Shown one piece after another: positions 1,143-4,507 of a stretch of 4,507 nucleotides of DNA. The stretch is from a virus (Duplodnaviria; Heunggongvirae; Uroviricota; Caudoviricetes). A program made the position numbers and the translations under genes. The notes under the pieces are model-generated. The model did no database searches. It saw only the letters and a program-made list of their open reading frames with translations, and had not been told where the DNA came from. The stretch's first letter is position 1. Every line of letters starts with the position of its first letter. The stretch covers positions 1-4,507 of the IMG/VR virus record IMGVR_UViG_2534681831_000024; one strand, 5' to 3'.

Positions 1143-1412
1143 TTACTTCATCCCGCCAATATTTTCCCACCTCCCGTCAGCACGCAGGATTTGCAGCGGT
1201 CTTACCACACACTGTATCTGCTTTTTATCCGCATCCAGTATCACCACCTGCGTGATTACCCTGTCCTGCTCCGGGATAATGCCATTCTCATCTGACTCCA
1301 GAATGTCTGCCGGTCCCAGTCGCAGCTGTGCTGTAAGTAACTCCCCGTCTTCACGGTCATCATGCTTTCCGCAACCGCACAGACGCTGCATAATTTTTTT
1401 TAATATGTTCAT
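1143..1412 (-). CDS. Small hypothetical protein (89 aa from ATG 1412; the ORF track's 118-aa version starts at TTG 1499); alternatively the C-terminal end of the frameshifted tail fibre gene
   Basis: ATG at 1412-1410 preceded by AGGAGA with ~6-nt spacer (minus caggagaatgacATG); product MNILKKIMQRLCGCGKHDDREDGELL...ENIGGMK; stop TAA at 1143-1145. The same frame is open upstream to 1700 with no stop, so it may not be an independent gene. Confidence 0.45.
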   Translation of the reverse strand: MNILKKIMQRLCGCGKHDDREDGELLTAQLRLGPADILESDENGIIPEQDRVITQVVILDADKKQIQCVVRPLQILRADGRWENIGGMK

Positions 1413-1605
1413 GTCATTCTCCTGTTCTGCCTGTATCACTGCCCACTTCATCCAGCCCCTTAACATCCTGCCACGGCCCGTCACCAAACTGACCTGCAAA
1501 TGCTGAAAAAAACCCTGAACCCGTGTGGCATCTTTGGGGGCAAGAAAGGTCAGTCCGGTGATGAGTGCGCCATCTGTATCCGGGAACCAGCCATGGCTGT
1601 TTGTC

Positions 1606-2526
1606 TCAATAATGTTTCCCGGCCCAGACGGAACCGTATTTGTGTCTCCCCCGGGTCGCCCTTCGGCCCCTGAGGTCCGGTTGCCCCGACAGGGCCGGTG
1701 TCACCGCGCTCTCCCTTATCACCCTTCGGCCCCTGAGGACCCGCGGGCCCCTGTTCCCCTTTGGCCCGGGAGGTCCCACCACGGTGGGGATTCGGTTTAC
1801 GGCCTCTTCCGCCGCTATCCTGCTTTGTTCCGCTGACTGTGCGCTTTCTGCTGACTCCCGGGCTTTTTCTGTTGCGGTCGTTGCATCCCTGGCTGCATTA
1901 CCGGCTGCACTTTCTGCCGTCTTTCTTGACAATTCAGCTTCTGCTGCACTTTGTGATGACTCACTGGCTTTTTGAGCGGCCGCAGAAGCCGAGGACGAGG
2001 ACGCCTCCTCTGACTGCTTTGCAGCGGCTGCACTTTCTGCCGCCTGCCGGGCTGACTCCGATGCCTCCCCTGCTGAAGTGTCAGCATTTGCCGCGCTCTC
2101 TTCTGCCTGACTGGCTGATATGCCGGCATTCCTCGCTGACGTCTCCGCCTCTCCGGCATTCTTCTTCGCCTCCTCAGCGTGACGCGCCACCTCTTCCACC
2201 ATCAGTTCAAAACGGCGCAGTGCCTCCGGCCGGACGTCATCCTCCGACATGGCACCGAGAAAATCATTCAGCGTACCGGGTTGAGAATCTTCATACACGG
2301 TGATGGTCCCGGCATGTGACGGCGGGAATCCTTCCACCAACAGAATGACTCTGTACTGACCGTACTCAACGTCCATGCTGTAACGACCGGCTTCATCCGG
2401 ATTTTCAGAGGCCACCGTGTTCACCACCACCGTGCTGCTGGTCCGTCTGGCTTTCAGTTGAATGGTGCAGTTCTCTACCGGTTTTCCTGTGCCGTCTTTC
2501 AGTACACCTGAAATCTTTACTGCCAT
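1606..2526 (-). CDS. stf: Side tail fibre protein (lambda Stf-like), N-terminal domain plus Ala/Ser/Glu-rich linker; frame ends prematurely just after the start of collagen-like repeats
   Basis: ATG at 2526-2524 gives MAVKISGVLKDGTGKPVENCTIQLKARRTSSTVVVNTV..., which I recognise from memory as closely matching the N-terminus of phage lambda Stf (the track's start at 2532 is a GTG two codons upstream). Long SA/E-rich low-complexity linker as in Stf. The C-terminal tail in this frame (GNRGPRVLRGRRVIRESAV...RGRHKYGSVWAGKHY) looks like out-of-frame translation. Confidence 0.75.
   Translation of the reverse strand: MAVKISGVLKDGTGKPVENCTIQLKARRTSSTVVVNTVASENPDEAGRYSMDVEYGQYRVILLVEGFPPSHAGTITVYEDSQPGTLNDFLGAMSEDDVRPEALRRFELMVEEVARHAEEAKKNAGEAETSARNAGISASQAEESAANADTSAGEASESARQAAESAAAAKQSEEASSSSASAAAQKASESSQSAAEAELSRKTAESAAGNAARDATTATEKARESAESAQSAEQSRIAAEEAVNRIPTVVGPPGPKGNRGPRVLRGRRVIRESAVTPALSGQPDLRGRRATRGRHKYGSVWAGKHY
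1650..1765 (-). repeat. Collagen-like Gly-X-Y repeat coding segment of the tail fibre, readable only in the -1 frame relative to the stf N-terminal frame
   Basis: The stf frame gives GPP-GPK-G then loses periodicity; the adjacent frame gives KGEQ-GPA-GPQ-GPK-GDK-GER-GDT-GPV-GAT-GPQ-GPK-GDP-G. One extra base in the minus-strand AAAGGGG run (plus 1756-1762) would join them into an unbroken Gly-X-Y array. Confidence 0.6.
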
Positions 2527-2537
2527 ATTCACCCCAC

Positions 2538-2564
2538 AAAAAAGCCCGCCTGAACCGGCGGGCT
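2538..2564 (-). terminator. Rho-independent terminator downstream of lom (minus strand)
   Basis: Perfect 8-bp stem agcccgcc (2543-2550) / ggcgggct (2557-2564), 6-nt loop, followed on the minus-strand transcript by a U-run (plus A-run 2538-2542). It sits 27 nt after the lom stop at 2591 and just upstream of the stf start. Confidence 0.6.
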
Positions 2565-2590
2565 GTCATAACACTGTGTTACCTGGCTAA

Positions 2591-3190
2591 TCAGAACTTA
2601 TAACCGACACCCACGATGAAACCGTCAGTGCGCCAGTCGCCACTGCCGGAGCCTTCATAAGCAATATCAATGGCCACGGATTCGGTCGGGTTAAACTGCA
2701 CGCCAGCTCCCCACGCCAGAGACGTGTTGCTGTGGCGACCGTCATCACTTCCGGTCAGCACATCATGCGTTTTCCCCTTGTTGTCGGTCACCTGCAGATA
2801 ATCTCCGGAGAAAGTCGACACACGGCTGTAAGACACACCCGCCATCGCATACGCGCTGAACCATTCATTCACGCGCACAGACGGCCCCGCCATTACGCTG
2901 AACCAGCGGTTACGAACGGAATCTTCATGCCAGCGGGTATCGCTGTAATGGGTCAGCTGGCGATTCCTGTCTCCTGCATAGCTGAACGACGTCACCATCC
3001 CCAGTGTGTCCGTAAACTCATAACGGTATTTCACGTTAATCCCGTTCAGTTCATCGCTGCCGGGAACGTTCGTCGAGACATGAAGATACCCCGCGCTCAG
3101 CGTGGACTGATGTTCAGACGCCCATGCAGGCGCACCGGATACGGCCAGACAGATGGCTGCGGACAAAATGGCGGCATAAAGTTTACGCAT
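2591..3190 (-). CDS. lom: Lom outer membrane protein (Ail/Lom/OmpX/PagC beta-barrel family), intact, with signal peptide
   Basis: 199-aa ORF with ATG at 3190 and GAGAGG-type SD upstream. N-terminal signal peptide MRKLYAAILSAAICLAVSGAPAWA with an AxA cleavage site. The C-terminal half (...SVMAGP...SAYAMAGV...AWGAGVQFNP...VAIDIAYEGSGSGDWRTDGFIVGVGYKF) matches lambda Lom as I remember it, ending in the aromatic beta-barrel signature. Position between the J-like and stf genes matches lambda synteny. Confidence 0.9.
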   Translation of the reverse strand: MRKLYAAILSAAICLAVSGAPAWASEHQSTLSAGYLHVSTNVPGSDELNGINVKYRYEFTDTLGMVTSFSYAGDRNRQLTHYSDTRWHEDSVRNRWFSVMAGPSVRVNEWFSAYAMAGVSYSRVSTFSGDYLQVTDNKGKTHDVLTGSDDGRHSNTSLAWGAGVQFNPTESVAIDIAYEGSGSGDWRTDGFIVGVGYKF

Positions 3191-3214
3191 AATTACCTCT
3201 CGCTTTTCTGCAAT

Positions 3215-3238
3215 AAAAAAGGCGTCATTTCTGACGCC
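3215..3238 (-). terminator. Rho-independent terminator downstream of the J-like gene and upstream of lom (minus strand)
   Basis: 7-bp stem ggcgtca (3221-3227) / tgacgcc (3232-3238), 4-nt loop, followed on the minus-strand transcript by U6 (plus A6 3215-3220). It lies between the stop at 3257 and the lom start at 3190. Confidence 0.6.
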
Positions 3239-3256
3239 CGTTATGGGTTATAAAAT

Positions 3257-4084
3257 TCAGCTGATACTGATACCTGCTGTGGATTTTTTCATCACCACAA
3301 CCAGCAGATCGCTGATACTGGTTGTTGGTGTCCAGTTATTCGCTCCTGATGAAGATACGGTGAATGTCAGTGTCAGCGTCCCCTGTCCGGCAGGCATATC
3401 TATAACTGAAGAAAATACGCCCTGAGCATCCGTCGTGGACTGATTAAAAATCTCCTGACCATTGCGGGTCACTCTTAACCGGCAGGTTGAATACCGGTAT
3501 GACTGTTGGTTATTACTGTTGAAATTCTCATGCTTACCACCGCGGAATAACACTGGCGGTATCATGACCTGCCGGTCAAACTTCTGATCATCACTGATTC
3601 TTACCGTGATGGTGCCACTGGCATAAGTGCTCGTGCGGGGGAAAGACTTGCTGACCGTTTTGACAATATCGCCTTCAATCTGGTTGGCTGACAGTTTCCC
3701 CTTAATCTGACAGTTCTCATTAATCGTGACGTTGTTGAGCGTCCCTGAGTTCGCATTCACACTGCCACTGATATCCGCATTTTTCGCCGTCAGTCGCCCG
3801 TCCGGCGTCAGGGAAAACGTCGGGGGGTTGCCGGATGACGTGATACTCACCGCAAACAGTCGTTTCAGGAACACGTCGTTCATGAACAGCTGATTCCCCT
3901 GCGCCACAAATAACGGCGTGCTGTTGCCGCTCTCCGGATTTATCATCGCGATACGGTCAGCCAGCAGCAGTATGTTGCTCAGTGGCTGGCCATCAGTATC
4001 CTCAATCCCTGCACCAATCCCGGCCACATAGGGGAATGCCGTCTTTCGTTTTTGTAACCTTTCAGCATGTACAGCGCAGCCAGG
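3257..4084 (-). CDS. Tail tip / host specificity protein (J-like), C-terminal putative receptor-binding segment (third frame segment)
   Basis: Frame open from 4084 (after TGA TGA at 4085-4090) to stop at 3257-3259; the track's 256-aa ORF starts at a GTG (4027) inside it. Ser/Thr/Asn/Gly-rich beta-type sequence ([29 protein letters not shown]...) typical of fibre distal domains. J assignment rests on its position immediately upstream of lom. Confidence 0.5.
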
Positions 4085-4305
4085 TCATCATTTGTGTCCT
4101 TCTGCACGCGCTGTATCTGCTGTATGGTGGCGCTCTGGTTCTCCAGTGTTTTGTTGACCGTCTGTGTGATTTCATTGCGGGTTTCCGTGATGCTGGTCTT
4201 CATCTCCGCCATCTCATCTGCAAGCTGGCTGTTATCTATCAGTTCCCACAACCCCTGAGCCAGATGCAGTTTTCCTATTTTTCCCGGAAAAATTCCAGAT
4301 ACCCT
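3979..4305 (-). CDS. J-like gene, middle frame segment with coiled-coil-like heptad character
   Basis: Frame open from 4305 (after TGA at 4306-4308) to stop at 3979-3981; the track's start at 4251 is a TTG. Sequence ...[76 protein letters not shown]... The first part overlaps the end of the upstream segment and the last part overlaps the start of the downstream segment. Confidence 0.4.
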
Positions 4306-4507
4306 TCACCATCATTGCTGGGCTGCCCGCTGACTTCCACAAACGCAGATTTCCCCACCAGGTTGACGCTGCGCACGTAAAACCAGAAATCCTTCCCGGG
4401 CTTAATGTGCGGGCCGGATACACTCCACTGACTGCCGGTCCCCAGATAACTGGCAGAGGTTTCCACCTGAGATGTGTCTGCGATTTTTGCCTCCGAAAAC
4501 CAGAACT
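4275..4507 (-). CDS. J-like gene, upstream frame segment entering from beyond the window end
   Basis: Frame open from the window edge (first full codon at 4505) to TAG at 4275-4277; the track's start at 4466 is a GTG. Sequence [76 protein letters not shown]. Confidence 0.4.

What the first reader, a model, noticed from the sequence alone, without database searches (positions are those of the whole stretch)
1143..4507. All four frame disruptions are single-base shortfalls at homopolymers, in the same direction, with no other lesions
Both tail genes change frame only at homopolymer tracts (plus C4T3, C5, T5, T5), and every change is a -1 step that one added base would repair. There are no internal stops, larger deletions or IS insertions, and lom and the cargo gene are intact even though the cargo gene contains its own G6 and A5/T5 runs. 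This is the classic signature of homopolymer under-calling in long-read or flow-based assemblies. The alternative is a very young decay process (for example slipped-strand mutation in a defective prophage that has kept its cargo). Which one applies decides whether this prophage has a functional tail.
Basis: inference. Interest (0 to 1): 0.6.

Follow-up and report, generated by a model that had tools for sequence, protein, structure and literature searches.

The report
Sequencing errors in a draft contig
The broken phage tail genes in this window are almost certainly base-calling and assembly errors in an old draft contig of E. coli DEC8B, because a finished genome of what appears to be the same strain has both genes intact.

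Summary
The window is the whole of contig AIGG01000040.1 from the 2012 draft assembly of E. coli DEC8B (O111:H8). It carries the right end of a lambdoid prophage, all on the minus strand: J C-terminus, lom, stf, a small fibre-C ORF, a tfa remnant and the first 309 codons of nleL.

- There are five frame-changing sites, not four: three in stf and two in J.
- They comprise about seven single-base events, and two or three of these are insertions (G3->G4, T2->T3, and a T moved past a G).
The true site is a C4->C3 tract 25 bases away.
- A CC->C deletion was missed.
- There is a 207-bp in-frame deletion in the collagen-like repeats, plus three substitutions.

The finished genome "O111:H8 strain 8B" (human, Idaho, matching DEC8B's provenance) has every gene intact. 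Its first 1400 bases are identical to the window. Six of the seven indels and the deletion junction occur in none of thousands of homologous copies in 5,426 complete genomes. The frameshifted products occur on this contig only.

Lesions cluster in two ~250-bp patches, hit short runs, and spare T8, A7 and G6. I judge this an artefact of low interest.

The parts
1..927 (-). nleL (type III effector E3 ubiquitin ligase), codons 1-309 only; runs off the contig start
   Evidence: Identical to residues 1-309 of WP_001301673.1. Window 1-1400 is 100% identical to strain 8B.
1049..1141 (-). tfa-like tail assembly gene remnant, a genuine pseudogene shared by all relatives
   Evidence: RefSeq annotation 'incomplete; missing N-terminus' in 95NR1, E2863 and 8B. 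Sequence identical to 8B.
1143..1412 (-). 89-aa tail fibre C-terminal domain ORF, intact
   Evidence: Identical to WP_001023356.1. Pfam PF06820.
1414..2526 (-). stf side tail fibre gene. It is 440 aa in the references. Here it carries three -1 shifts and a 69-codon deletion.
   Evidence: Frame map. Reference CDS WP_086893301.1.
1489..1489 (.).
   Evidence: No exact match in 688 records / 4,357 places.
1623..1625 (.). C3 where references have C4 (-1).
   Evidence: No exact match in 650 records / 3,166 places.
1667..1667 (.). Substitution C (references T), 10 bases from the deletion junction
1676..1687 (.). Junction of a 207-bp in-frame deletion (69 Gly-X-Y codons) between 11-bp direct repeats CCGGTTGCCCC
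   Evidence: No contiguous match in 712 genomes / 5,839 places.
1756..1759 (.).
   Evidence: The C4 form exists in 15 of 715 complete records, but not in strain 8B. It is annotated 'frameshifted' there.
2591..3190 (-). lom (Ail/Lom outer membrane protein), intact
   Evidence: Identical to WP_001230462.1.
3257..4507 (-). J (tail tip/host specificity) residues about 745-1159; runs off the contig end; two frame changes
   Evidence: Frame map. Reference WP_086893277.1.
3496..3496 (.). Substitution G (references A); changes J residue 1081
4031..4034 (.). G4 where references have G3 (+1 insertion)
   Evidence: No exact match for 4005-4085 in 589 records / 1,773 places.
4049..4062 (.). Compound lesion. 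References read T6-G-AA-CC-T2 and the window reads T5-G-T-AA-CC-T3 (net +1). Together with 4031 this gives the second J shift.
4278..4282 (.). T5 where references have T6 (-1)
   Evidence: No exact match in 672 records / 2,610 places.
4506..4506 (.). Substitution C (references T), two bases from the contig end

Best explanation
The frame disruptions are consensus errors in a short, poorly supported contig of the 2012 draft assembly of E. coli DEC8B. They are not mutations of the prophage. Two patches of about 250-270 bp (1489-1759 in stf and 4031-4282 in J) hold all the indels, one nearby substitution and a 207-bp loss within the collagen-like repeats. In flow-space terms every indel is a plus-or-minus-one miscall of a homopolymer length. 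One T is also displaced past the next base, as incomplete extension would produce in pyrosequencing (inferred). The real locus in this strain encodes full-length J (1159 aa), Lom and Stf (440 aa).

Shown: the contig's identity, the privacy of the lesions, intact genes in the finished genome, and the clustering.

Inferred: that strain '8B' is DEC8B, that the platform was 454, and that local low coverage is the proximate cause.
For: 1. The window is the entire contig AIGG01000040.1 of GCA_000249815.2. That assembly is DEC8B (PMC7693793).
2. DEC8B is O111:H8, human, Idaho, 1986 (PMC2211750). The finished genome NZ_CP077473.1 is 'O111:H8 strain 8B', Homo sapiens, USA: Idaho. With 95NR1 and 95JB1 it is the top match at 99.7%, against 99.3% for other O111 genomes.
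3. In 8B all five genes are annotated intact. Window 1-1400 is 100% identical to it. It carries the reference state at every lesion.
4. Thirty top complete genomes keep the region at 4714 bp, with one at 4715. Natural variation here is therefore substitutions, not indels. The window has about 7 indels against 3 substitutions.
5. Five of the six local sequence contexts tested have no exact match among 1,773-5,839 homologous places in 5,426 complete genomes.
6. The three frameshifted products are each recorded on this contig only.
7. Lesions hit C2, T2, G3 and C4 runs, while T8, A7, G6 and six other runs of 6 are untouched.
8. Two-patch clustering has P about 0.002 for 7 events and 0.04 for 5 sites.
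9. One substitution lies 2 bases from the contig end.
10. The same sequencing centre's E. coli drafts of that year used 454 Titanium with the Celera assembler (PMC3491183).
Against: - Identity of '8B' with DEC8B rests on name, serotype, host and state, plus best sequence match. No stated synonymy was found.
- The platform and coverage of the DEC8B draft were not verified, because the announcement paper is not held.
- No other contig of the draft could be examined, so the genome-wide frameshift rate is unknown.
- One lesion, C5->C4 at 1756, does occur in 15 other complete genomes. That tract may be genuinely unstable.
- The 207-bp deletion is in frame and bounded by direct repeats, as a real replication-slippage deletion would be.
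Confidence: 0.93

Rival explanations
1. Genuine, very recent decay. The DEC8B culture sequenced around 2011 really carried these slipped-strand mutations and the repeat deletion, which inactivated J and stf of a prophage retained for its nleL cargo. The finished '8B' genome would then come from a different stock or isolate.
For: - All indels touch homopolymers, and the deletion lies between 11-bp direct repeats and is in frame.
- A C5->C4 change at the same stf tract is annotated as a frameshift in other complete genomes.
- From my own knowledge, natural stf frameshifts exist (lambda PaPa) and EHEC prophages are often defective.
Against: - About 8 lesions sit in roughly 520 bp, with none in the other 4 kb.
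- Indels outnumber substitutions by more than 2 to 1, while relatives differ only by substitutions.
- Short runs are hit while T8, A7 and G6 are spared, the opposite of slippage kinetics.
- No clonal relative shares any of six lesions.
- The matching finished genome is intact.
Confidence: 0.04
2. Paralogue collapse. The contig consensus mixes reads from the roughly 5-10 near-identical lambdoid prophage copies in the genome, and the lesions are copied from other copies or arise where copies differ.
For: - The affected segments are multi-copy, with a median of 3-9 places per genome.
- The C4 variant at 1756 exists in some prophage copies elsewhere.
- stf collagen regions differ in length between copies, with 441- and 450-bp spans.
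Against: - None of thousands of paralogous places carries the window's states at 1489, 1623, 4031-4062 or 4278, or the 207-bp junction. Paralogues therefore cannot be the source of these states.
- Strain 8B is not among the records that carry C4.
- At most this explains the substitutions and thin unique coverage.
Confidence: 0.03

Closest known systems
Homopolymer-length miscalls of flow-based sequencing (454 pyrosequencing, Ion Torrent) giving spurious frameshifts in draft bacterial assemblies (established knowledge)
   Same: - Every indel is a plus-or-minus-one change of a homopolymer length.
- Both over- and under-calls occur.
- The rate rises with run length: about 0.3% of 2-mers, 0.65% of 3-mers, 2% of 4-mers and about 10% of runs of 5 or more.
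- The lesions are absent from an independent finished assembly.
   Different: - Half of the events are at runs of 4 or fewer.
- They cluster in two patches, together with substitutions and a 207-bp repeat loss. This points to locally thin or poor read support rather than a uniform systematic bias.
- The platform was not verified here.
Lambda PaPa stf frameshift (Hendrix and Duda 1992; from my own knowledge)
   Same: A single-base frameshift in the side tail fibre gene of a lambdoid phage splits stf into two ORFs.
   Different: That lesion is real, stable and confirmed against Ur-lambda. Here the finished genome of the matching strain has stf intact, and there are three shifts plus a deletion in one gene.
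Defective lambdoid prophage pool of EHEC (O157 Sakai Sp prophages, Asadulghani et al. 2009; from my own knowledge)
   Same: It is the same prophage family and the same J-lom-stf-effector module. Genuine remnants exist, such as the tfa-like pseudogene at 1049-1141 shared by all relatives.
   Different: Genuine defects are inherited by clonal relatives and include IS insertions, truncations and deletions. The J and stf lesions here are private to one draft contig.
Exchangeable effector loci downstream of lambdoid tail fibre genes (Tobe et al. 2006; from my own knowledge)
   Same: nleL (and espN beyond it) sits immediately downstream of stf/tfa, as annotated in 95NR1 and 8B.
   Different: Nothing unusual; this is the ordinary arrangement.

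Membership tests
Sequencing/assembly artefact (flow-type homopolymer miscalls in a draft contig) | Lesions absent from an independent high-quality assembly of the same strain | tested here: met
   Strain 8B (O111:H8, human, Idaho) has the reference state at every site and intact CDSs. The identity of 8B with DEC8B is inferred from metadata.
Sequencing/assembly artefact (flow-type homopolymer miscalls in a draft contig) | Indels are plus-or-minus-one changes of homopolymer length, in both directions, more frequent in longer runs | tested here: met
   C2->1, C4->3, C5->4, T6->5, G3->4, T2->3 and T6->5 with a displaced T. Census by run length.
Sequencing/assembly artefact (flow-type homopolymer miscalls in a draft contig) | Lesions private to the assembly | tested here: met
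   No exact matches for five of six contexts in 5,426 complete genomes. Products occur on this contig only. The exception is C4 at 1756, seen in 15 records.
Sequencing/assembly artefact (flow-type homopolymer miscalls in a draft contig) | Data produced on a flow-based or long-read platform | not testable with these tools
   The announcement paper is not held. The same centre used 454 Titanium with Celera in 2012 (PMC3491183).
Sequencing/assembly artefact (flow-type homopolymer miscalls in a draft contig) | Genome-wide excess of homopolymer frameshifts or low read depth at the sites | not tested
   No other contig of GCA_000249815.2 and no reads were reachable.
Genuine prophage pseudogenisation | Lesions inherited by clonal relatives | tested here: not met
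   95NR1, 95JB1, 8B and more than 200 other genomes carry intact genes of constant length.
Genuine prophage pseudogenisation | Indel load in proportion to substitution load and spread along the element | tested here: not met
   About 7 indels against 3 substitutions, all indels in two patches, P about 0.002.
Slipped-strand contingency (phase-variable) locus | Long tract whose length varies among isolates | tested here: not met
   Tracts are 2-6 bases and invariant among thousands of copies. Only the C5 at 1756 varies, in 15 of 715 records.
Lambdoid prophage tail-tip / side-fibre / effector module | J, Lom, Stf, fibre-C and effector genes in lambda order | tested here: met
   RefSeq annotation of the collinear locus. 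Pfam hits PF24489, PF09327, PF12421, PF06316, PF06820 and pentapeptide on the contig's products. Protein identity map.

The most novel reading that the evidence does not exclude
The G5/C5 tract at the start of the collagen-like domain of stf (window 1756-1759) could be a genuine slippage hot spot. It would recurrently switch side tail fibres off in EHEC lambdoid prophages. The tract is read one base short in 15 of 715 complete genomes of unrelated serotypes, whereas the T6 tract in J is never shortened in 2,610 copies. Under that reading, this one lesion in DEC8B might be real even though the others are errors.
Probability: 0.08. Interest if true: 0.35.

Novelty: not a real feature. Interest (0 to 1): 0.06.

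Why it matters
The value is practical only.
- The contig should not be used to call this nleL prophage tail-defective or to score pseudogenes in DEC8B.
- The draft GCA_000249815 has been used as an RNA-seq reference (PMC7693793). Spurious frameshifts there fragment gene models.
- It shows that a tidy "all -1 at homopolymers" pattern read by eye can hide insertions, a missed shift and a 207-bp repeat loss.

Tried and rejected
- **Platform check.** I tried to read the DECA genome announcement (PMC3370608 and its DOI). It is not held.
- **Accession searches.** Searches for AIGG and CP077473 gave only the DEC8B link. Searches for 'DEC8B' with '454' or 'Hazen' gave no methods.
- **Data access.** Loci L002, L004 and L006 never appeared in the Python sandbox. 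Comparisons with 8B were therefore made with DNA alignment for 1-1400, 1400-1800 and 3990-4507. For 1800-3990, identity of 8B with 95NR1 is inferred from identical protein accessions and identical bit score.
- **Programmed frameshifting, rejected.** No relative shares the shifts.
- **Phase variation, rejected.** The tracts are short and invariant.
- **Mismatch-repair mutator origin, rejected.** The lesions are patchy and the long runs are spared.
- **Paralogue-derived variants as the source of the indels, rejected.** They are absent from all paralogues.
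Full report
**What the window is**

All genes lie on the minus strand (ORFs; annotation of the collinear locus in E. coli 95NR1, E2863 and 8B; protein map). In window order they are:
- nleL codons 1-309 (927..1), running off the window
- a 30-codon ORF
- a tfa-like tail assembly remnant (1049-1141), a pseudogene in every relative
- an intact 89-aa tail fibre C-terminal ORF (1143-1412)
- stf (1414-2526)
- lom (2591-3190)
- the last ~415 codons of J (3257-4507), running off the window

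This is the ordinary right end of an EHEC lambdoid prophage with its effector cargo.

**Where it comes from**

The frameshifted Stf product is recorded on exactly one contig among the public assemblies indexed. That contig is AIGG01000040.1 of GCA_000249815.2. It is 4507 bp long, so it is the whole window. The two J fragments give the same answer. GCF_000249815 is the draft genome of E. coli DEC8B (PMC7693793).

DEC8B is O111:H8, human, Idaho, 1986 (PMC2211750). The draft belongs to the DECA collection announced by Hazen et al. 2012 (reference seen; paper not held). The same centre's E. coli drafts of that year used 454 Titanium paired-end reads and the Celera assembler (PMC3491183). I believe the same applies to DEC8B but could not verify it.

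**Checking the observation**

Aligning the window to the best complete-genome match (95NR1, 99.7%) and to 8B and E2863 gives the full list of differences (coordinates).

| Window position | Gene | Window | References | Effect |
|---|---|---|---|---|
| 1489 | stf | C | CC | -1 |
| 1623-1625 | stf | C3 | C4 | -1 |
| 1667 | stf | C | T | substitution |
| 1676/1677 | stf | 207 bp missing | present | in-frame deletion between 11-bp repeats CCGGTTGCCCC |
| 1756-1759 | stf | C4 | C5 | -1 |
| 3496 | J | G | A | substitution, J residue 1081 |
| 4031-4034 | J | G4 | G3 | +1 |
| 4049-4062 | J | T5-G-T-AA-CC-T3 | T6-G-AA-CC-T2 | net +1 |
| 4278-4282 | J | T5 | T6 | -1 |
| 4506 | J | C | T | substitution |

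The frame map shows stf going 1->0->2->1, so its last 25 codons are back in frame. J goes 2->1->0.

- Both tail genes are disrupted.
- Each step is a net -1.
- lom and the visible part of nleL are clean.

- It counted four sites where there are five.
- It placed one shift at an unaltered C5 (1648-1652).
- It missed that the second J shift is built from insertions.
- It missed the 207-bp deletion and the substitutions.

**Is the pattern more than chance?**

Runs of 4 or more hold 7.8% of bases (census), yet 3 of the 4 clear deletions hit them (P about 0.002, my arithmetic). The association with homopolymers is therefore real.

Half of the events are nonetheless at runs of 2-4. The longest runs in the window (T8 at 1394-1401, A7 at 1506-1512, G6 at 631-636 and 3822-3827, and several A6/T6) are all correct.

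All indels fall in two patches, 1489-1759 and 4031-4282. The first patch also holds the substitution at 1667 and the big deletion. Simulation gives P about 0.002 for such clustering of seven events. It gives 0.04 if the compound lesion is counted once.

**Artefact or decay?**

Five lines of evidence point the same way.

1. *A matching finished genome is intact.* NZ_CP077473.1, 'E. coli O111:H8 strain 8B', Homo sapiens, USA: Idaho, matches DEC8B's name, serotype, host and origin.
   - With 95NR1 and 95JB1 it is the best match to the window (99.7%, against 99.3% for other O111 genomes).
   - NleL, the fibre-C ORF, Stf (440 aa), Lom and J (1159 aa) are all annotated intact in it.
   - Window 1-1400 is identical to it base for base.
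   - It has the reference state at every lesion.
2. *Relatives do not vary in length.* Across the thirty best complete genomes the region is 4714 bp, with one at 4715. Natural variation here is substitutional, while the window shows about seven indels against three substitutions.
3. *The lesions are private.* Short queries centred on each lesion found no exact match:

   | Site | Records | Places |
   |---|---|---|
   | 1489 | 688 | 4,357 |
   | 1623 | 650 | 3,166 |
   | deletion junction | 712 genomes | 5,839 |
   | 4031-4062 | 589 | 1,773 |
   | 4278 | 672 | 2,610 |

   This also rules out paralogous prophage copies as the source of those states.
4. *The frameshifted products are unique.* They occur on no other contig in the collection.
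5. *The anatomy fits poor read support.* The lesions are patchy, hit short runs and spare long ones. They include over-calls, a T displaced past a G, and a mismatch two bases from the contig end. That fits thin or low-quality read support in a small contig of a repeat-rich region. It fits neither slippage kinetics nor a systematic under-call.

I put the artefact explanation at about 0.93.

**What remains open**

- The identity of 8B with DEC8B is inferred, not stated anywhere I could read.
- Platform and coverage are unverified.
- I could not examine the rest of the draft.
- The 207-bp loss is in frame and lies between direct repeats. On its own it could be either a real slippage deletion or a consensus collapse. 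Its position inside the error patch and its absence from 8B and from 5,839 homologous copies favour the latter.

**One exception worth recording**

The C5->C4 state at 1756 does occur elsewhere. Fifteen of 715 complete records, of serotypes O157, O111, O26, O121, O145 and others, have an exact 69-bp match. The two I opened annotate that stf as 'frameshifted'. One of them, O157:H7 PV15-279, carries it in the nleL prophage together with a second -1 at a T5 tract. Strain 8B is not among the fifteen. This is either a recurrent consensus error at a GC-rich tract in long-read assemblies or a real hot spot. I could not tell which.

**Comparison with known cases**

The finding matches the well-known class of homopolymer miscalls in flow-based drafts. 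It resembles, but is not, a natural stf frameshift of the lambda PaPa kind or the genuine defects of EHEC prophages (both from my own knowledge). The defining test for those, inheritance by relatives, fails.

**Verdict**

This is not a real biological feature. In the matching finished genome J and stf of this prophage are intact. The only genuine lesion in the window is the shared tfa-like remnant. Interest is low.

Noticed in passing
window 1756-1759 (stf, coding-strand G5 at about codon 257); L005 1501-1569; L006 1501-1569: The same C5->C4 shortfall is present in 15 of 715 complete E. coli records of unrelated serotypes, where PGAP marks stf as frameshifted. The T6 tract in J is never shortened in 2,610 copies. 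This is either a recurrent long-read consensus error or a real slippage hot spot.
   Followed up: partly
L005 993-2304 (O157:H7 PV15-279, nleL prophage stf): This finished genome's stf carries two homopolymer -1 deletions (C5->C4 and T5->T4) and a 9-bp shorter collagen region relative to 95NR1. This shows that 'complete' assemblies can show the same pattern.
   Followed up: partly
window 1049-1141: The tfa-like tail assembly gene is a 93-nt remnant lacking its N-terminus in every relative examined. It is the only genuine gene remnant in the window.
   Followed up: no
window 1560-1800 homologues: The collagen-like Gly-X-Y region of stf varies in length between prophage copies by 9 bp (441- versus 450-bp spans), so there is natural in-frame repeat-number variation.
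   Followed up: no
window 1 and 4507 (contig ends): The contig breaks inside nleL, which is annotated once in each of the fetched neighbourhoods, and inside J. A break inside a gene not known to be repeated suggests low coverage rather than only repeat-induced fragmentation.
   Followed up: no
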